Assembly (NCBI RefSeq): GCF_036365525.1
Contig: NC_090373.1
Span: forward strand, 40,649,590-40,713,589
DNA: 64,000 nucleotides
Reading direction: 5' to 3'
DNA from: Heterodontus francisci
Taxonomy: Eukaryota
Both the position numbers and the translations under genes were made by a program. The notes beneath the pieces were generated by a model that ran no database searches, was not told where the DNA came from, and saw only the letters and a list, made by a program, of their open reading frames with translations. This document shows positions 3,001 through 61,441 of this stretch, one piece after another (position 1 is the first letter of the stretch; every line of letters begins with the position of its first letter).

Positions 3001-6000
3001 CCAATCTACCCAGCATCACCAATCCACTCACCGACACCCTTAGACTCACCAACACACTCACTGACACCGATACACTCTCTGACACCAATCCACTCGGTGA
3101 CACCAATCCACTCGGCGACACCAATCCACTCACCGTCACCAATCTACTCACTGACACCAATCCACTCACCATCGCCAATGCACTCAGCATCACCAATCCA
3201 CTCACCGACACCAATCTACTCACAGATGCCAATACACTCACCGACACCAATACACTCACCATCACCAATACACTCACCGATACCAATCCACTCACCGACA
3301 CCAATCCACTCACCGACACCAATCCACTCACCGACACCAATCCACTCACCATCGCCAATCCACTCGGCATCACCAATGCACTCACCAAGACCAATATACT
3401 CACTGTCACCAATCCACTCACTGACACCAATATATTTATCGTCACCAATACCTGCATCATCACCAAACCACCCACCTTAACCAATCCACTCGGCATCGCC
3501 AATCCACTCGGCATCACCAATACACTCGGCATCACCAATACACTCGGCATCACCAACCCGCTCACCGTCACCAATACGCTCACTGACACCAACCCACTCA
3601 CCGTCACCAAAGTGCTCACCGAGACCAATCCACTCACCGTCACCAATCAACTCGGCATCACAAATATACTCATCATCACTAATACATCCGAAGAAGGGTC
3701 GCTGACCCGAAACGTTAACTCTGCTTCTCTTTCCACAGATGCTGCCAGACCTGCTGAGTGATTCCAGCATTTCTTGTTTTTGTATCACTAATACACTCAC
3801 TGAAACCAAACCACTCACTGTCACCAATACACTCGGCATCACCAATCAACTCAGCATCACCAAACCACTGACCGACACCAATCCGCTCACCATCACCAAT
3901 ACACTCACCGACACCAATACACTCACCGACACCAATAAACTCATCGTCACCAGTACACGTACCAACACCAAACTACTCACTGTCGCCAATCCACTCGGCA
4001 TCACCAACCAACCCGGCATCACTACTCCACTCGGCATCACCAATCCACTCACCGACACCAATGCACTCACCGACACCAATACACTCACCGACACCAATAC
4101 ACTCACCAACACCAATCCACTTTGCATCAGCAATCCACTCGGCATCACCAAACCAATCACCGACAGCAATATACTCATTATAACCAATCCACTCACCGAT
4201 ACCAATCCACTCACTGACACCAATCCACTCACTGACACCAATCCACTCACTGACACCAATCCACTCAGAGACACCAACATACTCACCATCACCAATACGC
4301 ACCAAAACCAAACCACTCACTGTCACCGATACACTCAACACCAATCCACTCAGCATTAGCAATCCACTTGGCATTCCCAATACACTCACCATCAACAATA
4401 CTCTCTCCGACACCAGTCCACTCACTGACACCAATACACTCAGCGACACCAATACACTCATCATCACCAATACAAGCACCGACACCAAACCACTTACCGT
4501 CACCAATACACTCACCGACACCAATGTACTCATCATCACCAAAACATACACTGACACCAAACCACTCACCATCACAAATCCACTTGGCATCACCAATCCA
4601 CTCGGCATCACCAATCCACTCACCGACACCAATCTACTCACCGACACCAATCCACTCGGCTTCACCAATAGACTCACTGACATTAATACACTCCGCGAGA
4701 CCAATATACTCATAATCACCAATACACACACTGAAACCAAACCACTCAGCGTCACCAATCCACTCAGCATCACAATTCCACCGGCATCACCAATCCACTC
4801 GGCATCACCAATCCTCCGACCAGCACCAATACACTCACCGACACCAGTACACTCACTGACACAAATTCACTCGGCATCACCAATACACTGACCGTCAAGA
4901 ATCTGCTCGCCGTCACCAATACACGCACCGACTCCAAACCACTCACCATCACCAATCCACTCGGCATCACCAACCACTCGGCATCACCAATACACGCACC
5001 GGCACCAATCCACTCGGCATCACCAATCCACTCACCAACACCAATACACTCAGCGACACCAATACACTCAGCGACACCAATACAGGCACCGACAGCAAAC
5101 CATTCACTGTCACCAATACACTCACTGACACCAATATACTCGGCGTCACCAATCCACTCATCGACACCAATCCACTCGGCATCACCAATCCACTCACTGT
5201 CACCAATCCGCTCACTGTCACCAATCCACTCAGCATCACTGATCCACTCAGCATCACTGATCCACTCACCAACAGCAATACACTCAGCGACACCAATACA
5301 CTCAGCGACACCAATACACTCATCATAACCAATACAGGCACCGACAGCAAACCATTCACTGTCACCAATACACTCACTGACACTAATATACTCGGCATCA
5401 CCAATACACTCATCGACACCAATCCACTCGGTATCACCAATCCACTCACTGACACCAATCCGCTCACTGACACCAATCCACTCGGCATCACCAGTTCACC
5501 CGGCTTCACCAGTCCACCCGGCTTCACCAGTCCACTGAACATCACCAATCTACTCGGCATCACCAATACACTCACCGACACCAATACACTCACCGACACC
5601 AATACCCTCGGCATCACCAATCCGCTCACCGTCTGCAATATGCTCACCGTCACCAATCCATTCGGCATCACCAATCCACTCACCGACACCAATCCACTCG
5701 ACTTCACCAATAGACTCACTGACACTAATACACTCCGCGAGACCAATATACTCCACCAATACACACACTGAAACCAAACCACTCAGCGTCACCAATCCAC
5801 TCGGCATCACAAATCCACCGGCATCACCAATCCAATCGGCATCACCAATCCTCCAACCAGCACCAATACACTCACCGTCACCAGTACACTCACTGACACA
5901 AATTCACTCGGCATCGCCAATACACTGACCGTCACGAATCTGCTCGCCGTCACCAATACATGCACCGACACCAAACCACTAACCATCACCAATCCACTCG

Positions 6001-8628: not shown

Positions 8629-8629
8629 A

Positions 8630-14904: not shown

Positions 14905-15945
14905 TAACTCTATCAGTGCCTACAATTCCAGAAGGAAAATCACTTTCAATGAAGGATCTGTTGTAAATCCAGAGAAGAACAGGAGAATCGGACTGCATTG
15001 TGAATGACACTCCACAATTGAGTCCTCCCTCTCAGCTCAGGACTGGAATAAGCAGCTTGTGCATTGACTGCATTGCCTGCCAGAACAGAAACAAGGCTTG
15101 CTCTTCTCTAAGCAGAGATAAAGGGATGTCCCAGTCAGATGAACGCTAATGATAAGGGTGAGCGGAGATAACAATGAGGGCGATAAGAATGGTGAACCTG
15201 CCACCAGGCCCAAATCCAATGCCAGTGTGTGACATGGTACATTGCCTACCAATCACCAGCTCATAAAACCCTTCTGTTTCCGCTCATGCACTTAGGCAGT
15301 CCTTGTGGGTTTTATTTTAATTTTTAAAAGTAAATATCCTTTATTATTTCATACGTTGTGCAACATCAGGGACTAGGACAGTCATATTCCAAAAGCAGCC
15401 TCTCCTTTTGAGCTCCCGGAGAGCATGAATGAACTGATCATGACCGTGTCTCTCTAACCAACCTTGGGCCTCATTTTCTACTGCTCCTCACACAGCACTG
15501 GGTTTGTTTGCTTACTGCACCTTGTCTCTTAAAAGATTACCGTTTTAAAGAACTCACCATCCCTGCAGATTAATTACCTTCTAAGTACTCACCTTCTGTC
15601 CATTCCTTGTTTCTCTGTAGCCAACAATTTAATGGGGGCACTATCACATAAAGTGACTGTACCAACACTCAGGCTAATGGATGGCCCCAATCATCACAAC
15701 TAAACTAACAGAAGGTGAAGTGTTGCTATCCCAAATCAATGTCAGTCAAGTCACCATTTGTACACCACACATTCCCATCTCATTATGCATATTTCAACGC
15801 ACTAGTTTGTGTTATTTCTGCATGTATAGCAGGAGGAGGCCATCTCTTTGCACTGCTGCGACTAGGCAGGACAAGCTGGGTTCCTGTGTCCAGATGCAGG
15901 CTGGGGTTAGGTCGGGACTGACAGACAATCAGTAGGACAGGGGTA

Positions 15946-16165
15946 AATAAAAACAAGAAATGTTGGAACCACTCAGCAGGTCTGGCAGCATCTGTGGAAA
16001 GAGAAGCAGAGTTAATGTTTTGGGTCAGTGACCCTTCTTCGGAACTGACCCGAAACGTTAACTCTGCTTCTCTTTCCACAGATGCTGCCAGACCTGCTGA
16101 GTGGTTTCAGCATTTCTTGTTTTTATTTCAGATTTCCAGCATCCGCAGTATTTTGCTTTTATTTT
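15946..16165. mobile_element. Miniature inverted Penelope-like insertion (two outward-facing pLTR 3' ends)
   Basis: A minus arm (15946-16049) and a plus arm (16044-16165) of the PLE 3' end, joined at a shared ACTGAC. 15-bp TSD AGTAGGACAGGGGTA at 15931-15945 and 16166-16180. Confidence 0.93.
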
Positions 16166-16180
16166 AGTAGGACAGGGGTA

Positions 16181-33853: not shown

Positions 33854-35888
33854 CTGAAAAAAAAGATGCAACTTAAATTTAGTTTGAACCTGACAAAACC
33901 TCCTTATGTGTTTTTAAGGTAGTCACAGTGCTCTACTAATGAAAAGCATGCAGCAGGGGGAAGATCTAGGATTTTCTTGTTGAGCCTAGATGAGCACTCC
34001 TGCTTCATAAGGAAAGTAAAAAAAAAAAATTAAAACTTACTTGTTGGGCCCAATCTTCGCCACTGTGTTGGCCTGACTGGAAGCTCACTGTCGCTTCCCA
34101 TTCATGCCACCCAGTAGAACATTAGAACATGCTAAAGTCAAAAATGAGCCCGCCGGTTTTTGGTGGGTTTCCTGACTGCCTGCTCAAGAGAATCGGAACC
34201 AATCAGCTTTAGATCGGGGAGGTAACTTCAGCAATTTTAACTGACCACATGTCTAGCTCCCACTGATCAGAGAGGTTTAAAATCCCCTCCTAGATCTTCA
34301 ATCACTTTGTTAAAAACTATGGGTGTTAAGTATAATCCCCTAATCAACATGTTGTCAAGGTAAGAACTACCAGAATGAAATGTGACCAATGTAGACATAG
34401 AGTGCAGTCACTAGTTGGGTCATAATTCTATTGTAGTACATTTACAAATAGTTACAATATACAGGGCATTAAAATGTGTGAAAATCATAACAGTGAATTA
34501 AACTTATTTGATGCACATAAATTACAGTAAATGATAATATTAGGGTCCTCAAATATTCATGGTACAATGCATAATGTAAAACAAAACATCCCTAATACTG
34601 TGGGCCTGTTAGCCCAATTTTCAAATTTGCATGTTGAGAAATATACCTTCAAGCAATATCCAATAAAGCATTATTCTATATAAAGGCTCACTGCCTTCGG
34701 AAAAATGTGCCTGAAGAGAAACAAGAGAGAAGTTCCGTCCCTTCTTATGTCACAATATTAATGGATTTTGTCATGGATTGCAGCAGATTTTAGATCATTA
34801 TGCTGGTTATTTTTAAGCCAGCAAAGCATGTTTGGCAAGCAATTTTTTTAGTGATGGTACTGCCCTTTTAAGAAAATTCCATAATGATGTTGTTACACAA
34901 CACTACTGAACTGAGGTATACCATTGCAGAGTGAGCACAGCTGCAAGTTCTGTGTGACACTGCAGGCTGCACCTGGTTGAGCCTTGCTCTATGAAAGCAT
35001 GCGCAGGGCTTGACTTTCTCTGGCTATTCCTTAATAAGAAGAGTGAGCGAGTGGCTTCATTTATTACAAAGATTCAATAGTACGTTTATAAAAAGGCCAG
35101 CAGATTCAACAGACCACCTGGGAAATGCTTAATCTCAGTTGGACTGGATTTACACTACACTGTGAAACCTGAACGCAGTATGACAGACTCCTGGGCAGGA
35201 GCTCACACTGTGTGCCTTTAGTGTGCCTGAGAATCAGCCTCGGGACTTGAACTGCAAGTTATATTGCCACCTCAGTGTGGACACTCACCTGAAAACACTT
35301 CACACAGATATAAAAATGGGATTGTAACTGTTGTTTGAATGGTCCTTAACACATTCAGTCATAGAATGTATGAAAAGCACTTCTGTGGCCATTACACAGC
35401 TGCAGCTTTCAAAACACAATTTCACAGCGCATTCAGTACAGTCTGGGTCCAAGGTCATACTGATTCTAAAATGATGCTGTATTTAAAACATGCCAGCATT
35501 TTGAAAGCTGTAAAATTGCTTGAACAGTTTTGAAATAATCAGGAAGCGATTTGGATGAGTACGGTCAGCGATTAAATTGGATGTTAATCTAGTTCTAAAC
35601 CGAGGGGCTATAAATATAATATAGTCACTAGCATAGATACATTTAAGGGAAAGCGAGATGAACACATGAGGGAGAAAAGAACAGAAGATTATGCTGATAA
35701 CAGTAAGGTGAAGGCGGGTGGGGTGCGAGGTGCTTTGTGTACACCATAGATAAGTTGGAACGAATAGCCTGTTCCTGTGCTGTACATTCTATGTAATTTG
35801 CCAAACATGTACAAAGTGGGATAAAATAAAAACAAGAAATGCTGGAACCACTCAGCAGGTCTGGCAGCATCTGTGAAAAGAGAAGCAG

Positions 35889-35925
35889 AGTTAACGTTTC
35901 GGGTCAGTGACCCTTCTTCGGAACT
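35889..35925 (-). ncRNA. Minimal type-I hammerhead ribozyme variant in the PLE pLTR
   Basis: Reverse complement reads AGUU-CCGAAGA-A-GGGUC/GACCC-GAAAC-GUU-AACU. Confidence 0.7.
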
Positions 35926-36284
35926 GACAAATATTAGAAAAGTCACAGGTTATAAGTAGGTGAGGTGGGGGTGGGGCAAGAGATAACAAAGGAGAAGGTG
36001 CAGATTGGACCAGGCTACATAGCTGACCAAAAGGTCACGGAGCAAAGGCAAACAATATGTTAATGGTGTGTTGAAAGACAAAGCATTAGTACAGATTAGG
36101 TGTAATACACGGAATATTGAACAGCAGCAAGTGCAAACCTGAAAAAAAACAGTGGGTAAGCAAACTGAACAAACTAAGATGAAATGAAATAAATGCAAAA
36201 AAAAAGATTGTAAAAAATGTAAAAAAGAATGTAAGAAAAAAGGAAGAAAAAAATAACTAAAAATGAAAGTAAAATGGGGGGCTG

Positions 36285-37428
36285 TCATGCTCTGAAATTA
36301 TTGAACTCAATGTTCAGTCCGGCAGGCTGTAGTGTGCCTAATCGGTAGATGAGATGCTGTTCCTCGAGCTTGCGTTGATGTTCACTGGAACACTGCAGCA
36401 ATCCCAGGACAGAGATGTGAGCATGAGAGCAGGGGGGAGTGTTGAAATGGCAAGCAACCGGAAGCTCAGGGTCCTGCTTGCTCACTGAGCGGAGATGCTC
36501 CGCAAAGCGGTCACCCAGTCTGCGCTTGGTCTCCCCAATGTAGAGGAGACCACACTGTGAGCAGCGAATACAGTATACTACATTGAAAGAAGTACAAGTA
36601 AATCGCTGCTTCACCTGAAAGGAGTGTTTGGGGCCTTGGATAGTGAGGAGAGAGGAGGTAAATGGGCAGGTATTACACCTCCTGCGATTGCAGGGGAAGG
36701 TGCCATGGGATGGGGACGAGGTGGTGGGGGTAATGGAGGAGTGGACCAGGGTGTCGCGGAGGGAACGATCCCTTTGGAATGCTGACAGGGGAAGGGAGGG
36801 GAAGATGCGACTGGTAGTGACATCACGTTGGAGGTGGTGGAAATGGCGGAGGATGATCCTTTGGATATGGAGGCTGATGGGGTGAAAAGTGAGGACAAGG
36901 GGAACCCTGTCACGGTTCTGGGAGGGAGGGGAAGGGGGGAGGGTAGAGGTGCGGGGAATGGGCCGGACACGGTTGAGGGCCCTGTCAACCACAGTGGGGG
37001 GAAAATCCTCGGTTGAGGAAAAAGGAGGTCATATCAGAAGCATCGTCATGGAAGGTAGCATCATCAGAGCAGATGCGTCGGAGACGGAGAAACTGGGAGA
37101 ATGGAATGGAGTCCTTGCAGGAGGTAGGGTGTGAAGAAGTGTAGTCGAGGTAGCTGTGGGAGTCGGTGGGCTTATAATGGATATTAGTAGACAACCTATC
37201 CCCAGAGATGGAGACAGAGAAGTCGAGGAAGGGAAGGGAAGTGTCAGAGATGGACCATGTAAAGGTGAGAGAAGGGTGGAAATTGGAAGCAAAGTTGATA
37301 AAGTTTTCCAGTTCGGGGCGGGAGCAGGAAACGGCACCGATACAGTCATCAATGTACCGGAAAAAGAGTTGGGGGAGGGGGCCTGAGTAGGACTGGAACA
37401 AAGAATGCTCGACATATCCCACAAAAAG
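36285..37428 (-). pseudogene. Truncated, frameshifted PLE ORF: RT (YIDD), thumb, Cys-rich linker, GIY-YIG endonuclease
   Basis: FFRYIDDC, LPFLD, YKPTD and SSHP motifs, linker CNRRRCNTC, VVYCIRCSQCGLLYIGETKRRLGDRFAEH and GLN. One frameshift near 37000. Confidence 0.93.
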
Positions 37429-38105
37429 ATGTAGTATACTGTCTTTCAATGTAGTCTACTGTATTCGCTGCTCACAGTGTGGTCTCCTCTACATTGGGGA
37501 GACTAAGCGCAGACTGGGTGACCGCTTTGCGGAACATCTCCGCTCAGTGCGCAAGCAGGACCCTGAGCTTCCGGTTGCTTGCCATTTCAACACTCCCCCC
37601 TGCTCTCATGCTCACATCTCTGTCCTGGGATTGCTGCAGTGTTCCAGTGAACATCAACGCAAGCTCGAGGAACAGCATCTCATCTACCGATTAGGCACAC
37701 TACAGCCTGCCGGACTGAACATTGAGTTCAATAATTTCAGAGTATGACAGCCCCCCATTTTACTTTCATTTTTAGTTATTTTTTTCTTCCTTTTTTTTTA
37801 CATTCTTTTTTACATTTTTTACAATCTTTTTTTTTTGCATTTATTTCATTTCATCTTAGTTTGTTCAGTTTGCTTACCCACTGTTTTTTTTCAGGTTTGC
37901 ACTTGCTGCTGTTCAATATTCAGTGTATTAACACCTAATCTGTACTAATGCTTTGTCTTTCAACACACCATTAACATATTGTTTGCCTTTGCTCTGTGAC
38001 CTTTTGGTCAGCTATGTAGCCTGGTCCAATCTCGACCTCCTTTGTTATCTCTTGCCCCACCCCCACCTCACCTACTTATAACCTGTGACTTTTCTAATAT
38101 TTGTC

Positions 38106-38142
38106 AGTTCCGAAGAAGGGTCACTGACCCGAAACGTTAACT
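38106..38142 (+). ncRNA. Minimal type-I hammerhead ribozyme variant in the PLE pLTR
   Basis: Stem I AGUU/AACU, core CCGAAGA (U4C variant of CUGANGA) plus extra A, stem II GGGUC-ACU-GACCC, GAAA, palindromic AACGUU stem III, and putative GUU cleavage site. Confidence 0.72.
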
Positions 38143-38349
38143 CTGCTTCTCTTTTCACAGATGCTGCCAGACCTGCTGAGTGGTTCCAGCATTTCTTGTT
38201 TTTATTTCAGATTTCCAGCATCCGCAGTATTTTGCTTTTATTATGTCCAAAGTGGGGATGTTAAAGTTGAGAATGAATCATTAAAATAATTTAAAAGGTG
38301 GCATCTATGTAAAATCCATTGTCATTTGACAGCAAAATGTTGAAACATA

Positions 38350-38959
38350 GGGCAGGATTTTCACCCCGATATGGGTGTGGGAAGGGAGACGGGCAGGCAT
38401 GTAAATTCGCGCCACTAGCCAGCGCACTGATTTCCTCACATCATCCTGCCCACAATACAATTTCCTGTGGAATTTTCCAGTCAGCCTGTGGGACCGCCCC
38501 CCCGCAACATCGGGAGCAGGGCAGCTGCCTGGAGGTACCTTCCCGGTGGCACAAGCGCTTCAGGAAGACTTACAGGCCCCCGTTCATTGTGTAGCTCAGC
38601 ACAGCTGTGGCCGCAGTCTGCCCTGTGAAGGTGTCTCCCCTCCACAATGGTAGTCTGGCAGCTGTGGCCATTTTTTTACTTCAAAAGTTTTAAAAGTTGC
38701 TGAGGGGGTGTCTCAAGATGGAGGTGCCCTCTCTCTCCCTTACCTGTAACAGCAGGCTGAAGCTCCTTCCAGCAACTCCTATTGGCCCTGCAGCTTGGAG
38801 AATCCACCCACCGTCCTTCATTCAATGGTGAGTGAGCCCTCTGGCCACTAATTGGCCAATCCAGGGACAATCGATGTCAGTTGACTGCTCTCGACATGCT
38901 GTGGGGTTGGGATCTGTATTTGGCCTCGGGGTTATGACCCAAAATGCAAAATCCTACCC
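38350..38959. mobile_element. Harbinger-type MITE
   Basis: Termini GGGCAGGATTTT ... AAAATCCTACCC. Confidence 0.7.
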
Positions 38960-39109
38960 AGACAGTCAGCTTTAATTTGAATGTACTATCAACTAAAGTA
39001 ATTTATATCCTTAGATCACTATGGAACACAATAGTGCCCCATTCATCTTCAAGCTGGCTGAAACATCCCTTGGAGTAAGAAACAAACTTAAAAGTCCCCC
39101 TTATTCCTC

Positions 39110-39290
39110 ATAACAATGACTGCCAAATTGCTATGAGCACAAACCCACTATGAACTGAGCTACCGCTGAAACTAATTTCATATAAAATCCATACAGCCAA
39201 CAGACCGAGGGGATGACTTTTATCACATTATTCTGGACTGGATTTGAACCATGGTCCCAAAGCAGAAAGCCCAGTTCATCATCTAGTTGC
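39110..39290 (-). mobile_element. Ancient LF-SINE-like element
   Basis: rc GGTTCAAATCCAGTCCAG..GTGATAAAAGTCAT..TCTGTTGGCTGT..TATATGAAATTAGTTT..CAGTTCATAGTGG is colinear with the recalled LF-SINE consensus. Confidence 0.55.
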
Positions 39291-39977
39291 CCAGTCTGTC
39301 TTAAAACAAACAAAAATATCAATGTTCCTGCTCCTTGAGGGCCCAAATTCTCTCAGGTGACACAATACTCACAGTTTGAGGTAAGCTCAGATCTGTTGCA
39401 GATAAACATTAAATGGCCAGAGATGTAAAAACTTTACTAATTTGAATTAAACCTGCTCAATTCTCCTGGTTTAGTGCCCAAATCAATGGGCATGTTTCAC
39501 CTTGGTATAAATTTTATAGGGCTTTTTTTATTAAGTCATATTTGTTTTCCTGCCACCTGCCTTTAGTTACTTTTTTCATTTGGAAAAGCAGAAAGTATTT
39601 GGATTAGGTTTGGTTGAGAATTTCGTGCCTTCTGTAAAGTGTCTACAAATAACAGCTAAATTGCTAGCTTCTATCTACTCTGTTGGAGTTTAAATAGTGG
39701 CAGCTTCCCTTGTGAATCTGTGCAAAATATGCCTCCCAGAAATGTAAATATTAAGCAATAGCTCAAGTGATTGATATTTTTAAACACAGTCATCCTATTA
39801 TTAAATAAACTGCTAACTATTGAGATTAGCTCATTATTATTATTTCCAATTGTACCTTTTTTTCTACTCTCTTACTTGGCTTTCCCTCAGGTCCTTTTTT
39901 TTTGCTTTCTATCCAGTGACAGAAAGTAGAAAGCAAAGAAAAAATTGACAGAAAGAAAAGTGTATATTTAACATCTG

Positions 39978-40629
39978 GGGCTGAATTTTCCTGATCCTGT
40001 GGAAGTGGGCTGGGAGGCTGGAGAGCTGGCAATATGGCAGGGGAAGGAGTCAGGAGAGCAGCCAGATGACTTCCCGTCGCCGTGGCATATTGCCAGCGGC
40101 GGGATTCTGAGTGATGCAGCTACCCACTTAAGGGCTCAATTTTGCCCGCATTAGGAGGGCCTGCTGCTGTGTGAGGAGAATGCCAGGTAAACCCTGTCAT
40201 CTTTTATGGGCACGCCACGGTCCATGGAGGGCTCCCCCCACCGGAAATGGCTGCCCCCCCCCCCCCGTGCCAAACTCGCTGCCGCTACAATGAACCGCAC
40301 CCCTCCAATCGCCCATGCCAGCCTGCCTGGCCTCGGCTTCCTCACAACTTAAGTGTCTTTGACGGCACTTCGGTATTGGGCGTCCTCCCCCTCAAGCTGC
40401 AGCCTCAGAGCTGGCCACCGTTACTGAGACTGTTGAGCTGCCGGCCTTCTGATATGGCTGGCAGCTCTGGGCGGTGGCGGGTGCAGGCTGCTACCCTCGA
40501 ATGGACAGAGGCCTGGCAGAGGCCTGTTATTCGTTGATCGCTGCCGGCAAAAGGCCACCTCAGGGTTGTACTGGCCGAGGCTTTTGGCCCCGGCAGCGGG
40601 ACATCTTCAGGGCTGACAAAATTCAGCTG
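39978..40629. mobile_element. Harbinger-type MITE (possibly nested; second left terminus at ~40131)
   Basis: GGGCTGAATTTT ... AAAATTCAGC, with an internal TAA|GGGCTCAATTTT. Confidence 0.7.
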
Positions 40630-40795
40630 GTGAATTAAATTCCTGATTTGATAGGGAGTAGGTGGAATTATAGAGCAGATATTGAGGAAAGAGAAAGATG
40701 AGAATGGTCTGAGCAAGTCCTGAAAGAGGAGCAAAATAACAAGGGGAGATGGAGGGTAGAATAATCTCAAACTATTGCACCACATCAGTTTCGGC

Positions 40796-40965
40796 ACATT
40801 GGTGTCATTTACTTGTTAGCTGCTGGGTGAAAAATGCAGATGGCGAATGAGCAGCCCATTTATACATTGCTTGAAAAGAAAATCGTGTGAAGCATAAAGC
40901 GGGCGGCCGATTCATTATCATCTGTTTCGCACTTGGTGATATAAGTTAAAATGTCACCACTATGT
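40796..40965. repeat. Degenerate palindromic element (old MITE-like)
   Basis: TGGTGTCATTT..CTT pairs with AAG..AAATGTCACCA, and inner CAGATGGCGAATGA..GCCC.TTTAT pairs with ATAAAG.GGGC..ATTCATTATCATCTG. Confidence 0.55.
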
Positions 40966-41844
40966 CCGTGTTAGCTCGACGCTATATTCTTCCCACTGCC
41001 CTGCTGTTCCCATTGCTCTTCAACCAATTACTGATTTTTAGAGACAAATATGAATATATCTACAACAAAATGAAAATAAAATAATAACAGAAAACAAACA
41101 TTTAATAATTAATATAATAAAAAAAAGAAAAATATGAAAAAGTACTTTAGATGTTTTTAGCATGCAAAAGGTTCAAAATGTTCTCCATTCTGCTTTTAAT
41201 ACTATAGAAAGCATATATTTTCTTTCTTTAACAATGAATTATCTTACTCAACTACAAGATGATGGTGCTCACTGCAGATGGAAGCTGACAGCCTTATCCT
41301 TTGCTACTAATCCCTGGTAGTCTCAGTGTATATGTATTGTACTTGGAATCCTGCTGTGCAGAATCAGTAACAAATGCAATTAAATATTTATACGAGCTTC
41401 CCTTGTTATTTTCTCAAAGATGTCAACCACTTTATTTTCAACGGATTAGTGCCTTCTTGAAAATAGCAGGGCACAGGAATGTCACTTGAATACACAAATA
41501 TATTCGTTGCCAATTCCTACGGGGCGATTTCTGATGAAACAATACACTGCATGATTCCATGGACAAATGCTCGAGAGGCACAATGCGCTATTCGGCATCT
41601 GAAAGGTAGGTCCACACTAGCAATGGAACCCTTATTTGAATGGGTCCCTGCAGTTTCTGAACTGATGCAGATGTGAAATGGTCATTGTCTTCAGGAAAGA
41701 ATGTGGATGCAAACCTTTGCTTAGTGTTTTGTTTTGATGGGGAAGAGAGGGATGTGGAGTTAAATAACCAATTACATTACCTTCTTTTTTAATCTGGCAA
41801 ACCATCATTTGAGAATCTAATGGGTGACAAAGCACAGAACTCTC

Positions 41845-42481
41845 TGGGATTTTGACTGGGGCGTCCCCTTAATTGGCATGGAGATAAGTGTTCAACTAAG
41901 GGTGCCAGGCAGGCTCCTGAAGCTGGAGGGCTAATCTGAGGCCTACCAGCTTGAAAGGATCACCCAGCTGCAGTACAGGGTAAGTAACTGAGAGGGTGCT
42001 TCAACATGAAGGTATCCTCTCATCAACTGTTTCAAAAATTCAAATAAATGCAGGAAAAGCAGCCAGTCCACCACTGTGAGGAGGGGGAATCCCTCTACAG
42101 GGTTTTCGTTGGCTGCACCCACACCCAGAGAGGCAGGGAGGGCCTATAGGCCTGGCTGGAGCACTGACTCCAACCCTCCCAACCTACCACTGAGTGCCCA
42201 CCTCCAGGCAGTTAAACTGTCCCCCGCCACATTGGGAAACTGGAGGCCAACTGAAAAATCCCAGTGGGCCTCCTTTAACAGCCCTTAACAAGGCTCTTAC
42301 TGAGCCTAATTTGCTGTCAACCTTGTGAAAGTGGGCAGCCCTGCCGGGTCCCGAATCCAAGTCCCCTACAATGGCCGTTGTCGGGAATGGGATCAGGAAA
42401 CCGGCACGATGGCCAGTGCCAGTATTTTCGTGTCCTATCCACCTCCGTACCTGACCTCGGCAGGACCTGAAAATTCTGCCC
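41845..42481. mobile_element. Harbinger-type MITE remnant
   Basis: Right terminus GAAAATTCTGCCC at 42469-42481. The body resembles 38350-38959 in reverse. Confidence 0.55.
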
Positions 42482-42759
42482 AGACAAAGAAATAAAGTGA
42501 GGGAAAGAAAGAATGGATTATGAGGGGAAAAAAGAGAGACAGAGATAACATTTTTAAAAAAAGAATTAAAACAAACAAGCAGAAGAAGAGGGCATTGTGA
42601 CCCAGTTGTGCTTGGGAACTGTTTTATTGGTCTTTGAGAAGTTAATGAGTGAACGGCTGGAAATATGCGTGAAACGTACAAACATTCTCACTAATATATT
42701 GTGCGCCAAAATTATTTTCTGAAAGAAATGATCTAATTGGCATTTCTGAGTGTAAACTA

Positions 42760-43745
42760 TTACCCTCTCATTCTGACTGACCTCATCAGTGGTGAGGTGC
42801 ACATAAGCACCGGCCGTAGCAAACATGGCCTTGGTCACCTGAGAGATCCACGTGTGGGCAGCAGATTTTAAAGTCCTGCAGATGTCACTAGCAGATCCCT
42901 GGAAGGAGCTGGAAGCAAAGAAATTCAAGCCTGTGGTAATCTTGCCTGCCACTGACAATTCATGGCCACCTGATTCACTCGGCAGGAACTCTTCTTCCAG
43001 GAGGTTACAAATGTCAGTAATGACCTGATGGGCATCTCTGAGCCTCCTGAGGGACTGGTGCTCAGTCATGTCCGGGAAGCTTATCCTCTGCCTGTAAACC
43101 CTGTGATGGGAGTACCGACTCCTTTAAGCTGGAGCTCCACGTCCATCTCTTTTGTCCATGGAGCAGAAGGACTGGTTTTGTTGCTCCTCTTATTCCTCCT
43201 CAGACACCCAAGGTAGAGCTGCATAAGCAGCTCCCGTGCTGCTGTGAAGGCTGACAGCTGGGAAGTACAGATCAAAGGCAAAAAAACTCCAAGGTAGCAG
43301 AAATGGCCTCCAAAGTGTTGGAAATCACCTTCAAGGCAGTGAAAGAACACCCTCACAACATGAGCAAAGGCCTTTCACTTAGGCGAAGCAGCAGTTGTCA
43401 CATCTCAGTATTTAGGGCTTTCTTGCCTGTCAATTGCTCAGCCCTGTCATTTCCAGCTGCCCTCTCACCATGTTCAACCTGCCGAGTTTCAGGAAACCAG
43501 GAAAACCCGTGCACTCAGCATTAAAGATAGAATCCGTGGCTAAGACTGCTGTTAATTTCCATTTTGCATATGTAAATGCAAGACCCACTAGTCCCCTGGG
43601 AGTTCCCCGCACGCTAACAAACACGCTTGAGTTAAATGCGGAAGTCAGCAGGTTCTTGCTGGCTTACTGACACACTGGCAGTTTCTGACATATTAACTGC
43701 TGCCTGCACAGAAACTCACCAGTCATGGCAGGTTAAAATTCAGCC
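42760..43745 (-). mobile_element. Harbinger transposon remnant (terminus plus HARBI1-like transposase N-half)
   Basis: MTEHQSLRRLR..VITDICNLL..KITTGLNFFASSSFQGSASDICR..SAAHTWISQVT, with terminus GTTAAAATTCAGCC at ~43732-43745. Confidence 0.82.
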
Positions 43746-45392
43746 TATGTCTCCCATGAGTACATGTAAATCCAACATGAATGCAGCTATTTCTTTTCCC
43801 TAAAACTTTATGAAACTGCCTGATATCTTGTTGAAAACATAATTTTCTCAGTTTAGGCAAACAGCAGTGTTTGCACTGCTGTTTCTTTTATAAGTCTGTA
43901 AAGTAACAGCTGTGGCAGAATTCAAAAGGTAATTGCTTTTTTCGAGACCTGACTTTAGTATTTCACTGCCACCAGTAAAAATTCAGAGCTGTGATTTTTT
44001 TTTAAGAAATGGGCCTTTTTAATTAAATATACATTTGTGCACAGCTTGACATTCACATATTTATTAATTCTGCAAAGAAATTGGATTTTTGCGTTAACAG
44101 GTAACATAAAATGCATGAAGCATTGGTTTCTTGTGTACCGACTGTGTTGTATAAATGATGCTGTCACTGCAATAAAATGAAGACAAAGCACATGGAATCA
44201 ATCTTACTATCAACAAGATGTCTAACCTGCTGCAATTACACAAACTTTAACCGTGGTGTCAAATCAAAATGAGTTCTTCCCTGCTGCCTGAATCAGCTCT
44301 TCGAGTCTCCCAGTAAATTGCGTCTATGTGGGATCATTTTCTAGAAAGTGGTCTCCTATACACTATGTAGAGAAAAGTTGTAAGTGTGTTTGAAAGGAAT
44401 AAAACTCTAGCTTTGCTACACGTTGTGCGCAGAAAAAAATCTTGTATGTGGTTCCTACAGGTTTATAGAACATGTATTTCCAGACCCTCCACAGTAAATC
44501 TCCAGAAGGAGAAACATACACATATGGGAGATGTTAACACATAACTACCCACCCGAGACAGCAGAGGGATGGTGACCTAACCTAATAGCATCCCAGTCAA
44601 GATAAGGGTCATCTCCATGTTCCTTTATGGTATATGTCCTCCCCTTGTCTAAAACCATCATAACATGTTGATCTGGAAACATGGAAGATTACTGTACCAA
44701 TGTGTATTACTACTGCAACAAACAGATAGCCTTATTGTTGTATGCTCAGATTCCAGAAAAGGATTGAGACTGTCCGACAAGATAAATAACTGCACAAGGT
44801 TTGGATTTCTGGGATAAATTTCGGTGTACCGGACTGGATTAGGTAGCAGGAAGTTGTGATGCATGGGTGGTAGTAGCTGTTAGTGATTTGTTACAGGAAT
44901 CATTGCTGGGATTTTCATAAAAGATTTGGAGGATCTGATCATGTCCAAAGTGTCTAAATTTGCAGCCGACACCAAACTGGGAGCAATGGCAAATAATAAT
45001 CAACTTTTTAAAATCCAACAGGATCTATAGAAGCTGATCGGGGGGCGGGGTGCGGGGTTGGGGCAGAGAAGTGACAAATACAGTAGAGAACTATAAAGTT
45101 ATGAGATTTGACAGAAAGAAGGTAGGATAGATTATGTACTCTGTGCTTGCAATATTACAACGGGAAAACTAAGATCTCAGGTAGCTAGATCGCTAAAACT
45201 ATCAGCACAGATTTCATAAGCAGCTACGTAAATGCACAGAATGTTGGGAAACAAGGCTACAGATAAGCCAAAACAAATAATAGTAAAATTATAATAAAAG
45301 CAAAATACTGCGGATGCTGGAAATCTGAAACAAAAACAAGAAATGCTGGATTCACTCAGCAGGTCTGGCAGCATCTGTGGAATGAGAAGCAG

Positions 45393-45429
45393 AGTTAACG
45401 TTTCGGGTCAGTGACCCTTCTTCGGAACT
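45393..45429 (-). ncRNA. Minimal hammerhead ribozyme variant (PLE pLTR)
   Basis: Same 37-nt motif as 38106-38142, on the minus (CSMD sense) strand. Confidence 0.7.
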
Positions 45430-48161
45430 GACAAATATTAGAAAAGTCACAGATTATAAACAAGTGAGGTGGGGGTTGGGCAAGAGATAACAAAGGAGAA
45501 GGTGCAGATTGGACCAGGCCACATAGCTGACCAAAAGGTCACGGAGCAAAGGCAAACAATATGTTAATGGTGTGTTGAAAGACAAAGCATTAGTACAGAT
45601 TAGGTGTGAATATACTGAATATTGAACATCAGCAAGTGCAAACCTGAAGAAAAACAACCTGAAAAAAACAGTGGGTGAGCAAACTGAACAAACTAAGATG
45701 AACTGAAATAAATACAAAAAAAGATTGTAAAAAATGTAAAAAGGAATGCCAACAAAAAAAAAAAGGGAAGAAAAAATAACTAAAAATGAAAGTAAAGTGG
45801 GGGGCTGTCATGCTCTGAAATTATTGAACTCAATGTTCAGACCGGCAGGCTGTAGTGTGCCTAATCGGTAGATGAGATGCTGTTCCTCGAGCTTGCGTTG
45901 ATGTTCACTGGAACACTGCAGCAATCCCAGGACAGAGATGTGAGCATGAGAGCAGGGGGGAGTGTTGAAATGGCAAGCAACCGGAAGCTCAGGGTCCTGC
46001 TTGCGGACTGAGCGGAGATGTTCCGCAAAGCGGTCACCCAGTCTGCGCTTGGTCTCCCCAATGTAGAGGAGACCACACTGTGAGCAGCGAATACAGTATA
46101 CTACATTGAAAGAAGTACAAGTAAATCGCTGCTTCACCTGAAAGGAGTGTTTGGGGCCTGGGATAGTGAGGAGAGAGGAGGTAAAGGGGCAGGTATTACA
46201 CCTCCTGCGATTGCAAGGGAAGGTGCCCTGGGACGGGGACGAGGTGGTGGGGGTAATGGAGGAGTGGATCAGGGTGTCGCGGAGGGAACGATCCCTTCGG
46301 AATGCTGACAGGGGAAGGGAGGGGAAGATGCGACTGGTAGTGGCATCACGCTGGAGGTGGCGAAAATGGCGGAGGATGATCCTTTGGATATGGAGGCTGG
46401 TGGGATGAAAAGTGAGGACAAGGGGAACCCTGTCACGGTTCTGGGAGGGAGGGGAAGGGGTGAGGGTAGAGGTGCGGGGAATGGGTCGGACACGGTTGAG
46501 GGCCCTGTCAACCACAGTGGGGGGAAATCCTCGGTCGAGGAAAAAGGAGGTCATATCAGAAGCACCGTCATGGAAGGTAGCATCATCAGAGCAGATGCGT
46601 CGGAGACGGAGAAACTGGGAGAATGGAATGGAGTCCTTACAGGAGGTAGGGTGTGAAGAAGTGTAGTCGAGGTAGCTGTGGGAGTCAGTGGGCTTATAAT
46701 GGAAATTGGTAGACAACCTATCCCCAGAGATGGAGACAGAGAAGTCGAGGAAGGGAAGGGAAGTGTCAGAGATGGACCATGTAAAGGTGAGAGAAGGGTG
46801 GAAATTGGAAGCAAAGTTGATAAAGTTTTCCAGTTCGGGGCGGGAGCAGGAAACGTCTCCATCTCTGGGGATAGGTTGTCTACCAATATCCATTATAAGC
46901 CCACTGACTCCCACAGCTACCTCGACTACACTTCTTCACACCCTACCTCCTGTAAGGACTCCATTCCATTCTCCCAGTTTCTCCGTCTCCGACGCATCTG
47001 CTCTGATGATGCTACCTTCCATGACGGTGCTTCTGATATGACCTCCTTTTTCCTCGACCGAGGATTTCCCCCCACTGTGGTTGACAGGGCCCTCAACCGT
47101 GTCCGACCCATTCCCCGCACCTCTACCCTCACCCCTTCCCCTCCCTCCCAGAACCGTGACAGGGTTCCCCTTGTCCTCACTTTTCATCCCACCAGCCTCC
47201 ATATCCAAAGGATCATCCTCCGCCATTTTCGCCACCTCCAGCGTGATGCCACTACCAGTCGCATCTTCCCCTCCCTTCCCCTGTCAGCATTCCGAAGGGA
47301 TCGTTCCCTCCGCGACACCCTGATCCACTCCTCCATTACCCCCACCACCTCGTCCCCGTCCCAGGGCACCTTCCCTTGCAATCGCAGGAGGTGTAATACC
47401 TGCCCCTTTACCTCCTCTCTCCTCACTATCCCAGGCCCCAAACACTCCTTTCAGGTGAAGCAGCGATTTACTTGTACTTCTTTCAATGTAGTATACTGTA
47501 TTCGCTGCTCACAGTGTGGTCTCCTCTACATTGGGGAGACCAAGCGCAGACTGGGTGACCGCTTTGCGGAACATCTCCGCTCAGTCCGCAAGCAGGACCC
47601 TGAGCTTCCGGTTGCTTGCCATTTCAACACTCCCCCCTGCTCTCATGCTCACATCTCTGTCCTGGGATTGCTGCAGTGTTCCAGTGAACATCAACGCAAG
47701 CTCGAGGAACAGCATCTCATCTACCGATTAGGCACACTACAGCCTGCCGGTCTGAACATTGAGTTCAATAATTTCAGAGCATGACAGCCCCCCACTTTAC
47801 TTTCATTTTTAGTTATTTTTTCTTCCCTTTTTTTTTTGTTGGCATTCCTTTTTACATTTTTTACAATCTTTTTTTGTATTTATTTCAGTTCATCTTAGTT
47901 TGTTCAGTTTGCTCACCCACTGTTTTTTTCAGGTTGTTTTTCTTCAGGTTTGCACTTGCTGATGTTCAATATTCAGTATATTCACACCTAATCTGTACTA
48001 ATGCTTTGTCTTTCAACACACCATTAACATATTGTTTGCCTTTGCTCCGTGACCTTTTGGTCAGCTATGTGGCCTGGTCCAATCTGCACCTTCTCCTTTG
48101 TTATCTCTTGCCCAACCCCCACCTCACTTGTTTATAATCTGTGACTTTTCTAATATTTGTC

Positions 48162-48198
48162 AGTTCCGAAGAAGGGTCACTGACCCGAAACGTTAACT
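48162..48198 (+). ncRNA. Minimal hammerhead ribozyme variant (PLE pLTR)
   Basis: AGTTCCGAAGAAGGGTCACTGACCCGAAACGTTAACT. Confidence 0.7.
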
Positions 48199-48959
48199 CT
48201 GCTTCTCATTCCACAGATGCTGCCAGACCTGAATAGTAAAATTATATCTGGTTTTGTTTATTCTGCATGTGGAGTGCTGCATGCAGTTTTGGTCTCCCTA
48301 ATTTAAAAAGAATATGAAGCTGCTGGAGGGAGTGCAAAGGAAGGTGACAATGGGAACAGAGCTATGAGCAGGGGTTAGCTAACCTCACAAAAGATCAAGC
48401 AAAGGCATGAACTGATACAAGCATTTCGGATTGAGGCATTTGGCAAATGTCTCAAATATGTTTTTCGGCTGCGTACAGAATTCAGAACAAGGGATAATAG
48501 TTTCCAATTCAAGGATGAAATAATAAAACAGTAAATGCGGCAACATTTTTCAACAAATGGGTGATATATGGAACAGAACAATGCACTGTGTGACATGAGC
48601 TTGCACTTCACAATCCTTCTTGCTCTGGGTTCCTGATTTCTGCTGTGGCACTGCAGGTGAAGTCATATACTCTGCAGAAAGGGAAAATTAAAGAGGAAAC
48701 CAGGTTGGTCATGTGTCAGAGACCTTCCAACTGTTGAAGCCGAGCAGCAGACGGACTGCCTGGCTAGGGAAGGGACCGAATACGAGAAACTCAGAAATGG
48801 GAGAGGAGAGAAAAGTACTATCGAAAGTGGAAACCTCCTGATAAACTCAAAAAGAAAAATGATGTCAGCAGGCTGGGTATGCAGCATGCCGATATACCAA
48901 CACATTGTGGCATGGAGAGGTGGAACCCATAGTTCTCTAGGCAGCGAGTTACTAACTTT

Positions 48960-58231: not shown

Positions 58232-58436
58232 TTCATTAGTCAGAACACAGAATAATAGTTGCAAAGTTAGTCTCTATCACACAAACAAATACAAAAGGAA
58301 TTTTTAAAAAATGTTTGGGATCATTGTGCCCAATCAGCGAAAAACCACGAGCAAATTCTGTGATTGGCAGGGTATACACGACAGGCTGATTTCAGGGGAC
58401 GAGGGGCAGCCTCTAGCAGAACTGTCATGTTGATCT

Positions 58437-58591
58437 GAAATAAAAACTGAAAGTGCTGGAAAAACTCAGCAGGTCTGGCAGCATCTGTGGAGAGAGAAGC
58501 ATGGATGCTGCCAGACCTGCGGAGCTTTTTCCAGCACTTCCTGTTTTGATTTCAGATTTCCAGCATCCGCAGTATTTTGCTTTTATTTTGT
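58437..58591. mobile_element. Miniature inverted PLE insertion (older, lacks the hammerhead core)
   Basis: Minus arm 58437-58500 and plus arm 58504-58591 of the PLE 3' end. 14-bp TSD TGTCATGTTGATCT at 58423-58436 and 58592-58605. Confidence 0.9.
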
Positions 58592-61441
58592 TGTCATGTT
58601 GATCTCTCTGCAAAGTATGAGCATCTCCCTCCTGCCACTTGCAGAACAAGAGGGCATATAACAGGATGGCGACATCATGGACTGGCAGAGGGATGCCAGA
58701 CACCGGGCCTCTCTCCACGTCTGAGGATGAGGCACTAGAATTGGCAGGGACCCAGGGCGGCTGCTCCCTGTTTGACAGTGAGACTGGAGGCTCCAAGCAT
58801 ATATATATAATTTTCACAATAGACAAAATATCTTAAGTGCTTTAAGCAATAGAGATGTGCAGACTGAGCTCTGCAAGAGAGTGAGAATTGTCTTCCATCG
58901 ATATACAGTTCACTTCTGGAGACCCACATCACGTATGGTTGGCATGACGAGATCCGTACAGCAGAACCCACATGTTTGTGTTCTCTCACGCAGGTCGGCA
59001 TCCACAGGAGACTCAACCAGTAGGGGGACAGCCGTCCACCTCTGAGGAGGAATGCACCTGGAGGACTGTTGGTGGCCAGGCCCATGCAGAGCCCCAGGTT
59101 CATGATGAGCCTCTGATGTCGACACCACAAGGCATGCTGGAGTTGCAGAGAGAGGTAAGGTAACATCTGGTAAAGATGCCAGAGGCCATGAGCAGACGTT
59201 GGAGGAGTCCATCCATGCCATGAGTGCTGTCATGTCTCAGGCCTGTGAGAGCATGGCTTCCTCCATAGAGAGGTTGGTGACCCTCACGGAGAGTCAGATC
59301 CCATAGATGTGCATAGATCTGCACACCATCACCCTGGCCATGAGCTCAACACAGCAGTGGCAAGGCGAGAAATGGATGAGGCCCTGGAGTCTTCTCCCAC
59401 TCCTCGTCCTTCTCTGGTCAGCAGAGAGGTTCAAGTAAGCCTAGAAAGGGAGGAGGAGAGGCTGCCCTCCACATCTGGGGGCACCCCTCAGGGTACTCCG
59501 AATGTGGACACTGACTCCTCAGCCCATCTGCCAGTGAGCCCAGCTCCATCAGCTGCGATGCCCGAGTCCTGCAACAGCGCAGGAAACCTTCAGGCACCCG
59601 GGGCCCTCGAGGCCTCAGGCACCCAGAGGACGGCCACCGGTCATCTCAAGCCAAGGAGCAGCCTGATCAGCAGCCTGCCTCCAGCCCAGCTGCTCGCGAT
59701 GGGGGTCACACCTTATAGAAGCACTTGTAAACGTATAAAGAAAACCACACAAAGACACTTGGAAATCATAGGTGTTTGAAATTTGACATTTGCTTCATCA
59801 TATAAAGTTATTTTATTCAAGCCAGTAAGGTTCATTGTGTAAAAGTGATTATTCTATCATACATTAATTGTCAGCTGCTGACTTCCCCCTTCGTGGATTG
59901 CAAATGTAAGCACGGCCCTCATTTAAATATGATCTCCCATGGGCACTAACGCGTGGTTCAGCTGGGCACTGCGCATGGAACACAAATGGAAAGCAGATGA
60001 CAGACTACATGCATTGAGGTCAGCATTTATTAGATTCTCTGTGAGTGGGCATCAGGGTGTCTGGAAGCAGGTGATTATGAGATTATCTCTTGCCTCCTTG
60101 GCACATCACTCAATCTGCCTGGCCTCCAGTGCAAGGGCTTTACCTTCCAGGGGCGCTTCAGCCCTGCCCTCCTCGTTGGTGGAGGACTATCACTCAGGCA
60201 TCTCATCATCATGTAAGGCCTCCTTCCTCTGCAGTGTTATATTGTGCAGAGCACAGCAGACCACCACAATACATGAAACCCTCACTGCAGCAGACTGCAG
60301 ACCTCCACCAGTTCAACCTAGGTACCAGAATCTCATCTTCTGCAGCCCAATGGCTTGCTCAACGGCTGCTCAGGTGGAGCCATGACAAGTGTTGTACCTC
60401 TCCTCTGCTGCAGTGTGAGGGCTCCTCTCAGGTGTCAATGGCCATGTCTTCAGTGGGTAGCCCTTGTCCCCGAGAATCCATCCATGAAGGTGAGCAGGGG
60501 ACCTGTATAGCTGTGGCACCTGGCACTGTCAAGGTATGTAGGTGTTGTGGCTGCTTCCCAGGAAGTAGTCACACACCTGCAGGAAACACTTTTTGTGGTC
60601 CAAGACCAGTTGCACATCGATTGAATGGAAGCCCTTCCTGTTGATGAAGGCGGCAGGCTGGTATGTAGGAACCTTGATGGCCACATGTGTGCAATTTATC
60701 ACACCTTGTACCCGGGGGAACCAAGTGACAGCCCCGAATTCGATGGCCCTCTCTGCCTGGGTCGGTCTGGTATCACAAATAGTCGCCAGCCCCCTTGAAC
60801 AGGGCATTGATCACCTCCTTGATGCAGGGGTGAACTGTTGCCTGCGAGACCCCACATATCCCTGATGGATCCATGGAAAGATCCAGATGGATAAAAGTTC
60901 AGTGCCCCTGTGATCAAAGCTGCTGGCAGAGGAAGACTCCCAAATCCCATAGGTCGCAACTCGTCCTGCAGCAGGAAACATAGGTCGGTGACGGCCTCCC
61001 TAGAGAGGTGTACTCTTCGCTGACGATGCTGCCTGGACATTTGGAGGTAGCTAGTACACTGTCTGGCATAAGTGGGCCTTTTTGGCATGGCCGGCTGCTG
61101 TTGCTCTCGTCGTGGTGCTTCATGGACAAGCGCAGCTGCCTTTTGGCCCTCCCTCCATTGGAGGCGCTGCATCATGCCACCAGGGGTCCAAAAAGACAGG
61201 GTGTCTGAGAACCATGCCAGGTGACCTCTGGGCCTGCAAAGTGCCTTCGATGCAGAGGCGACCCTGCCATGGCAGTTTTCCCATTGCTCTTTCTCCCGGC
61301 AGACTCCCTGATGGCCCTCAGTGCCCACCCTTGCTAATAGCCAGCCCTCTCATCCAACAACCCAACAGTTTGGACACCCGATACAGCCACCCAAACCCCA
61401 GCGCCCCGCCCCACCCCACCCCACCCCCAACCCTTGCAGAG

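What the first reader, a model, noticed from the sequence alone, without database searches (positions are those of the whole stretch)
45294..48231. 2.9 kb near-perfect palindrome whose arms share private variants
Seen: arms of ~1377 bp differ, as far as I can read, only by one substitution (46704 region, TNF versus TNI) and one A-tract length. Both arms carry variants absent from the 35.8 kb copy (DTLIH versus DTLVH, SQG versus SHG, IPG versus IQG, an extra AGGTTGTTTTTCTTC). The join at 46855 has 1 nt of homology. Inference: both arms were copied from the same RNA or source element in one recent event, or are homogenised by arm-to-arm conversion. Such palindromes are expected to be unstable, so this may be a young, polymorphic insertion from an active family.
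Basis: partly seen in the sequence, partly recalled or inferred. Interest (0 to 1): 0.7.

Follow-up and report, generated by a model that had tools for sequence, protein, structure and literature searches.

The report
Young head-to-head Penelope retroelement insertion
The palindrome is two truncated copies of one Penelope-like jumping gene that landed head to head in a single recent insertion, an already described habit of these elements, although how the mirror copy is made is still unsettled.

Summary
Observation confirmed. Arms 45360-46737 (-) and 46855-48231 (+) differ by 1 substitution in 1377 and one T-tract base, against 3.0-3.5% from the 35.8 kb copy. They flank a 117-nt spacer inside one 15-bp TSD.

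The unit is the 3' part of a Neptune/Nematis-type Penelope-like element (PLE): RT thumb, CX4CxxC linker, GIY-YIG, and a minimal hammerhead in each arm. The layout is not special to this locus. 4 of 5 family insertions in the window are head-to-head pairs with a 14-15-bp TSD, one long-tailed and one short-tailed arm. Inverted 5'-truncated copies with a one-sided tail are textbook PLE features (PMC8557442, PMC3846280), and this scan noted them on other DNA before.

One event from one source is well supported; arm-to-arm conversion is not needed. Polymorphism and a read bridging the centre were not shown.

Likeliest mechanism (inferred, about 0.6): both target strands prime reverse transcription, at two start sites. 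In 5 of 6 resolved pairs the arms are not nested, which excludes simple fold-back there. This locus is the nested exception, so fold-back stays open for it. Ordinary feature, testable mechanistic angle.

The parts
45279..45293 (+). Left copy of the 15-bp target-site duplication
   Evidence: 15 of 15 identical to 48232-48246
45294..45359 (-). Single-copy 3' extension of the left arm; includes the family's ~35-nt 'tail' ending at the long RT start site
   Evidence: tail motif exact in 4 window insertions; family ends cluster at 45293-45296
45360..46737 (-). Left arm, duplicated part of the 5'-truncated PLE copy
45393..45429 (-). Minimal hammerhead ribozyme motif, left arm (predicted cut between 45397 and 45396)
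   Evidence: descriptor scan; 0 hits in each of 20 base shuffles; no Rfam hammerhead hit
45808..46854 (-). ORF remnant, 348 aa plus stop: end of RT and thumb, CX4CxxC linker, GIY-YIG endonuclease with CCHH; frame open
46738..46854 (-). 117-nt spacer, the single-copy 5' continuation of the left arm
46855..46855 (.). Inversion junction, 1-nt (G) microhomology
   Evidence: loose ends at 46855
46855..48231 (+). Right arm, 5'-truncated PLE copy; its 3' end equals left-arm position 45360, about 30 nt short of the family's usual short end
48162..48198 (+). Minimal hammerhead motif, right arm
48232..48246 (+). Right copy of the 15-bp TSD
35807..38256 (.). Insertion B: older head-to-head pair of the same family; 14-bp TSD with 1 mismatch, 842-nt spacer, arms 1.3% apart; the long tail is on the 5'-shorter arm
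15931..16180 (.). Insertion C: mini head-to-head pair; 15-bp TSD, 6-nt overlap at the centre; the long tail is on the 5'-shorter arm
58423..58605 (.). Insertion E: mini head-to-head pair of a more distant subfamily; 14-bp TSD; the long tail is on the 5'-shorter arm
3675..3795 (+). Insertion D: single 97-nt arm with a short tail and an apparent 12-bp TSD, inside the 18-bp tandem array (TSD less certain there)

Best explanation
A single, young retrotransposition product of an endonuclease-bearing Penelope-like element (Neptune/Nematis type; probably a shark host), made by priming from both target strands. SHOWN: one TSD, two 5'-truncated copies head to head, each running inward from its TSD copy in cDNA polarity, same source sequence, two different 3' ends. 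INFERRED steps: (1) The GIY-YIG domains cut both strands ~15 nt apart, leaving two 3'-OH ends. (2) Each end primes reverse transcription on element RNA from one source, one at the long-tail start and one further upstream. (3) Both cDNAs stop early, 117 nt apart. (4) One RT jumps onto the other cDNA's 3' end through a 1-nt G:C pair, and fill-in gives the palindrome and the TSD. Whether one RNA is copied twice or two RNAs from one locus are copied is unresolved. My odds: single PLE event from one source ~0.93; twin priming for this locus ~0.6.
For: One perfect TSD round both arms. Arms 0.07% apart versus 3.0-3.5% to B; 21 versus 0 informative sites. Same layout in 4 of 5 family insertions in the window, with TSDs of 15, 14, 15 and 14 bp and four different centres, so the centre is built at insertion. 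All 6 resolved pairs (A, B, C, E and the distant relatives L035, L049) have one long and one short 3' end; at even odds that has probability 0.016. Family reads confirm two end clusters, 45293-45296 and 45332, with diverse flanks. In 5 of 6 pairs the arm reaching further 5' has the short tail, so neither arm can be a copy of the other. A purified anole PLE protein cleaves and extends both strands, starts at two adjacent internal RNA sites and is predicted to be a dimer (PMC11167929, parts 1-2 of 4). An R2-derived RT jumps best with a 1-2-nt complementary overhang (PMC8857657, passages).
Against: This locus is the exception. Its right arm lies wholly inside the left arm's range at both ends, as fold-back predicts. 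Its right end (equal to 45360) is not the family's short start (45327-45332) and was not among the loose-end rows shown (4607 rows withheld). The in vitro data are from the Poseidon clade, report no difference in start site between strands, and do not discuss inverted insertions. The jump data are for an R2-derived enzyme on RNA templates. n is 6 pairs, two of them from distant hosts. No listed record bridged the centre at 46854/46855.
Confidence: 0.6

Rival explanations
1. Fold-back: one TPRT from the left nick makes the long-tailed first strand. Its 3' end, or the RT, turns back 117 nt and copies that cDNA, stopping 66 nt short of the start, and the end is joined to the target.
For: At this locus the right arm is nested in the left at both ends, ends at a non-canonical position, and differs by only one substitution and one tract base.
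Against: Only 1 nt of homology at the turn. Fold-back cannot give B, C, E, L035 or L049, where the 5'-shorter arm carries tail sequence that the other arm lacks, so it would be a second route in the same family.
Confidence: 0.25
2. Self-priming on an antisense template (proposed in PMC3846280), or retrotransposition of an already palindromic source transcript.
For: PMC3846280 (passages) reads palindromes at inverted junctions this way. Some opposite-strand joints in the family have many reads, e.g. 45562/45589 (56 reads in X21) and 45399/45399 (38 reads), so some centres recur.
Against: The centre here is a 117-nt non-palindromic spacer. All four centres in the window differ. Both outer ends are element 3' ends abutting one TSD.
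Confidence: 0.07
3. Two separate insertions, or one old insertion, homogenised by arm-to-arm gene conversion.
For: The six bases rare in family reads could in principle be post-insertion changes copied across; their 1-8% frequency is within background divergence.
Against: One TSD for both arms; TSD copies identical; the single-copy spacer has 0 of 117 differences from B; the frame is intact. The older pair B has accumulated 10 of 761 arm-arm differences.
Confidence: 0.04
4. Fold-back assembly or library artefact.
For: No record listed bridges the centre. The flank contig in X3 enters the element by only 21 nt, below the tool's 31-nt bridging rule, and X3 may be the source sample.
Against: An artefact would mirror flank rather than create a direct 15-bp TSD, a one-sided tail, a spacer and two arm differences. 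Three older diverged pairs have the same build.
Confidence: 0.04

Closest known systems
EN+ Penelope-like element insertions with an inverted 5'-truncated copy and a one-sided 30-40-bp tail (Craig et al. 2021, PMC8557442; Arkhipova et al. 2013, PMC3846280; Schostak et al. 2008, PMC2377424; all seen as passages)
   Same: Head-to-head inverted copies inside one TSD, tail on one end, 5' truncation, hammerhead near the 3' end, C-terminal GIY-YIG.
   Different: Both copies here are truncated to ~1.4-1.6 kb with no partial tandem or full ORF. The TSD is 14-15 bp against 8-10 bp in the rotifer examples. The end offset at this locus is 66 nt, not 30-40.
Neptune (or Nematis) clade PLEs
   Same: CX2-5CxxC linker before GIY-YIG, CCHH motif, C-terminal EN (criteria from PMC8557442). 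Closest named relative is a Chiloscyllium punctatum protein, 66% over 57% of the query.
   Different: Neptune versus Nematis was not resolved by a tree. No microsatellite target bias is evident at A, B, C or E.
Poseidon PAc of Anolis carolinensis in vitro (Frangieh et al. 2024, PMC11167929; parts 1-2 of 4 read)
   Same: Two adjacent RT start sites matching the tail; both target strands cut and extended; hammerhead upstream of the start sites.
   Different: Different clade (Penelope/Poseidon lacks the linker motif). The paper does not link these activities to inverted insertions.
L1 twin priming (described in bioRxiv 10.1101/2024.08.27.596794, passages)
   Same: Both nicks prime, two cDNAs join by microcomplementarity, and one TSD flanks an inverted product.
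   Different: In L1 the second primer anneals internally, so the pieces mostly do not overlap and there is one poly(A) end. Here both arms start at the element's 3' end and overlap almost fully, with no poly(A).

Membership tests
EN+ Penelope-like elements | RT fused to a C-terminal GIY-YIG endonuclease in one ORF | tested here: met
   GIY-YIG E=6e-4, 20.5 bits, just under Pfam's 22.6 cut-off. 84 longer homologues were found; the best have 44-53% identity over 82-100% of the query, and most carry RVT_1 N-terminally. The RT core itself is truncated away in A.
EN+ Penelope-like elements | CCHH motif with two Cys between GIY and YIG | tested here: met
   CxxC inside the GIY-YIG core and two downstream His; criterion from PMC8557442
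EN+ Penelope-like elements | Minimal hammerhead in the terminal repeat | tested here: met
   4 hits in the window, one in each arm of A and B; 0 in each of 20 shuffles. It has the extra base after A9 and a palindromic helix III as in PMC4209133. My descriptor allowed C at position 4. No Rfam hammerhead hit; activity untested.
EN+ Penelope-like elements | Inverted 5'-truncated copy, one-sided 30-40-bp tail, TSD | tested here: met
   4 of 5 insertions in the window; family ends at 45293-45296 and 45327-45332. At A itself the offset is 66 nt.
EN+ Penelope-like elements | Telomerase-like RT phylogeny; DKG motif | not tested
   The window copies lack that region. Full-length homologues show DKG. 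No tree was built.
Neptune/Nematis clades | CX2-5CxxC linker between RT and EN | tested here: met
   CX4CxxC at residues 214-222
Neptune clade specifically | RT tree placement with Neptune references | not testable with these tools
   No labelled reference proteins were available as tool sequences
Penelope/Poseidon clade | Absence of the CX2-5CxxC linker | tested here: not met
   Linker present
L1-type twin-priming 5' inversion | Largely non-overlapping pieces, poly(A) at one end | tested here: not met
   Arms overlap over 1377 nt; no poly(A)

The most novel reading that the evidence does not exclude
PLE inverted insertions arise because a protein dimer copies ONE RNA twice. The two target nicks prime at the two start sites; the RT starting upstream (short tail) leads, and the RT starting downstream (long tail) follows by strand displacement and usually stops first. 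This would explain the tail, the inverted copy and the arm identity together. It predicts that pairs always mix one long and one short tail (6 of 6 here) and that the long-tailed arm is usually the 5'-shorter (5 of 6, P=0.11; A is the exception). It also makes arm-arm divergence an LTR-like insertion clock. High-copy shark families would let this be tested on very many loci.
Probability: 0.25. Interest if true: 0.6.

Novelty: new member of a known kind. Interest (0 to 1): 0.25.

Why it matters
As a structure it is ordinary: the standard PLE inverted insertion, caught young. Its use is indirect. PMC8557442 calls the formation of PLE tandem and inverted structures still undefined, and a dense family that inserts mostly as TSD-flanked pairs gives a direct genomic test: tail pairing and nesting statistics separate twin priming, fold-back and antisense self-priming. 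Arm-arm divergence (0.07% in A, 1.3% in B) could date PLE insertions and measure how long inverted repeats survive in a vertebrate genome.

Tried and rejected
No whole genome is held, so no genome-wide census was possible. Rfam gave 3 chance-level hits over 35500-48600 and no hammerhead. Monomer folding of the 147-nt 3' end did not give the hammerhead fold (z -0.5); the 82-nt tail region folds weakly (z -2.3, 6 of 200 shuffles as good). An exact 35-nt tail motif found 0 loci in metagenome contigs. A protein-alignment scan found no relatives in viral contigs. In metagenome contigs it kept 80 loci out of 521 confirmed relatives. Of those 80, 5 showed an inverted upstream arm. I examined 4 of the 5 (L051 was not examined): 2 had a TSD, L050 had none, and L009 is cut by the contig end. 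Most contigs are too short for the rate to mean anything. Polymorphism test inconclusive: I laid 4 of 24 listed runs on 43600-46915 only. X21 had almost no flank depth, X5 and X9 none, and X3's flank contig runs into the element with no empty-site row among those shown; contigs drop rare variants. Summed depths are not copy numbers and were not used as such. Searches for a paper tying PLE inverted arms to twin priming showed none in their listings. The library lacks most subscription papers, and the early Penelope papers and Arkhipova 2006 were not read, so absence from print is not claimed. No supplements were read; those of PMC8557442 and PMC11167929 may bear on clade placement and start sites. 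No complex or structure prediction was run: the copy lacks the N-terminal region that the published dimer model uses.
Full report
OBSERVATION. The structure is as described. The arms are 45360-46737 on the minus strand and 46855-48231 on the plus strand: 1378 aligned columns with one substitution (46704/46888) and one homopolymer indel. The left copy continues 117 nt further 5' (46738-46854, the spacer) and 66 nt further 3' (45294-45359). A perfect 15-bp direct repeat flanks the whole unit. Arm-arm divergence is 1/1377; either arm differs from the 35.8 kb insertion (B) by 3.0-3.5% (Fisher P=3e-12). Of 729 gap-free columns shared by the four arms of A and B, 21 group A+A against B+B, none group crosswise, 10 are private to one B arm and none to one A arm.

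HOW PRIVATE ARE THE VARIANTS. I laid 4 of the 24 listed runs on 43600-46915. In raw reads of another sample with the same species label (X21), 92-99% of family reads differ from both arms at 45383, 45677, 45703, 45841, 46269 and 46536. The arms therefore share at least six rare bases. At 46704, 97-98% of reads carry the right-arm base, so the one substitution is derived in the left arm (RT error, later mutation or sequence error; not separable). 229 substitution rows were not shown, including any for the SQG site.

WHAT THE ELEMENT IS. The left copy reads as an open 348-aa frame. It has a weak GIY-YIG hit just under the Pfam cut-off and 84 longer homologues, most with RVT_1 upstream. The alignment shows it is the end of the RT, the thumb, a linker and the endonuclease. 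It has CxxC inside the GIY-YIG core with two later His, and a CX4CxxC linker. By the criteria in PMC8557442 (passages) that places it with Neptune or Nematis, not Penelope/Poseidon; no tree was built. The closest named homologue is from Chiloscyllium punctatum (66% over 57% of the query), so a shark host is likely but inferred. Each arm of A and B holds a minimal hammerhead motif: 4 hits, 0 in each of 20 shuffles, with the features given in PMC4209133 (part 1 of 4 and passages). Rfam did not detect it.

THE LAYOUT IS A FAMILY HABIT. The window holds five insertions of this family. Four are head-to-head pairs: A; B (14-bp TSD with 1 mismatch, 842-nt spacer, arms 10/761 apart); C (15-bp TSD, 6-nt central overlap); and E (14-bp TSD). 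D is a single arm. In each pair one arm ends at the long end (equivalent to 45293-45294) and the other stops earlier: 45327-45329 in B, C and E, but 45360 in A. Family reads give the same two end classes: 4306, 2220 and 3023 reads at 45293, 45294 and 45296, and 2457 at 45332 (4607 rows not shown). A 35-nt tail motif occurs exactly four times, once per pair, without mismatch. Among 80 loci of distant relatives, 5 show an inverted upstream arm, and two of the four examined resolve with a TSD of 16 and 13 bp and a one-sided extension. That extension is shared between the two loci and so is element-derived. This is the described PLE form: an inverted 5'-truncated copy next to the 5' end, with a 30-40-bp tail often on one side only (PMC8557442; PMC3846280; PMC2377424; PMC8969392; all passages). 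Earlier AI notes of this scan report the same on other genomes; I treat them as leads only.

MECHANISM. Geometry is informative: each arm, read inward from its TSD copy, is in first-strand cDNA polarity. That is what two 3'-OH ends of a staggered cut would give if both primed reverse transcription. A purified anole PLE protein cleaves and extends both strands, starts at two adjacent internal sites that match the genomic tail, and is predicted to dimerise (PMC11167929, parts 1-2 of 4); it does not discuss inverted insertions. All 6 resolved pairs mix a long and a short end (0.016 at even odds). Fold-back copying requires the second arm to be nested in the first. That fails in 5 of 6 pairs, where the 5'-shorter arm carries the longer tail. 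The 1-nt central homology fits an RT jump, which for an R2-derived enzyme works best with 1-2 complementary nt (PMC8857657, passages); that is a different enzyme on RNA templates.

AGAINST THIS READING. A itself is nested, and its short end is about 30 nt off the canonical site. The first three TSD bases match the element seven bases further on, so internal annealing plus a short slip could explain it, but this is speculation. Fold-back therefore remains open for this locus (0.25). The antisense self-priming idea of PMC3846280 rests on palindromic junctions, which A lacks, although some centres do recur in family reads. L1 twin priming (bioRxiv 10.1101/2024.08.27.596794, passages) is the nearest analogy but gives mostly non-overlapping pieces.

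AGE, STABILITY, POLYMORPHISM. A is younger than B by arm divergence (P=2e-4), by its intact frame (B's left arm is frameshifted) and by its identical TSD copies. Conversion is unnecessary: the single-copy spacer matches B at 117 of 117 positions. I give no age in years. Instability is probably modest: PMC10164571 (passages) cites a 300-fold fall in yeast recombination from a 12- to a 100-bp spacer, though long single-stranded regions remove that protection, and three older pairs survive nearby. Polymorphism was not shown. In X3, which may be the source sample, one contig matches 43600-45314 without differences, entering the element by only 21 nt. No listed record bridges the centre or shows an empty site. 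An artefact is unlikely on structural grounds but is not excluded by reads.

VERDICT. A real, young, single insertion of a known kind of element in its known inverted form. Interest 0.25. The one lead worth following is the tail and nesting pattern, which may show that PLEs prime from both target strands and perhaps copy one RNA twice; with six pairs it is suggestive only (5 of 6, P=0.11). Searches listed no paper making that link, but key older papers were not available, so I do not claim it is unpublished. bioRxiv 10.64898/2026.07.22.740005 (passages) reports Neptune and Poseidon PLEs as widespread in vertebrates and added nothing on inverted insertions. No supplements were read.

Noticed in passing
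window 45296-45330, 16126-16160, 38205-38239, 58550-58584: The 35-nt tail motif is identical in all four pairs, although pair E is 7-15% diverged from the other copies over its short aligned stretches, suggesting strong constraint on the start-site region.
   Followed up: partly
window 45327 / 45397 (joint): A recurrent opposite-strand joint (45 reads in X21, one contig in X9) has one side exactly at the last base before the predicted hammerhead cut; orientation is ambiguous. It may record cDNA started at, or ending at, a ribozyme-cleaved RNA end.
   Followed up: no
window 45291-45296 / 45332 (joints): 17 contigs in X3 join the long end to the short end on opposite strands, apparently tail to tail; could be insertion next to an existing tail or tandem palindromic units.
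   Followed up: no
window 45562/45589 and 45399/45399 (joints): Some inversion centres recur (56 and 38 reads in X21); the second is at the palindromic helix III of the hammerhead. Hotspots or amplified mini-palindromes.
   Followed up: no
window 3687 and 16049: The 5' ends of D and of C's left arm map to 45426 and 45432, the upstream edge of the hammerhead motif.
   Followed up: partly
window 37431-37460: B's centre has a short duplicated piece of its right arm's start, like a template slip, at a palindromic 8-mer in the GIY region; two joints in X3 (46076, 46084) fall in the same region.
   Followed up: no
window 45323-45345 (-): The family's short end lies at a pyrimidine tract followed by CAG that looks like a splice acceptor; Penelope has a 5' intron (PMC2377424). 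Resemblance only.
   Followed up: no
window 1-8700: Long degenerate 18-bp tandem array with strong strand skew and long open frames on both strands; insertion D sits in it.
   Followed up: no
window 54113-56431 (+) and 17743-18201 (+): Broken LINE with AP-endonuclease and RT pieces, and a separate AP-endonuclease fragment.
   Followed up: partly
window 61000-62400: GC-rich tandem repeat giving repetitive proline-rich open frames.
   Followed up: no
L035 2121-4569; L049 4512-6214: Distant PLE relatives in metagenome contigs with the same head-to-head build, TSD (16 and 13 bp), one-sided tail and hammerhead-like motif.
   Followed up: yes
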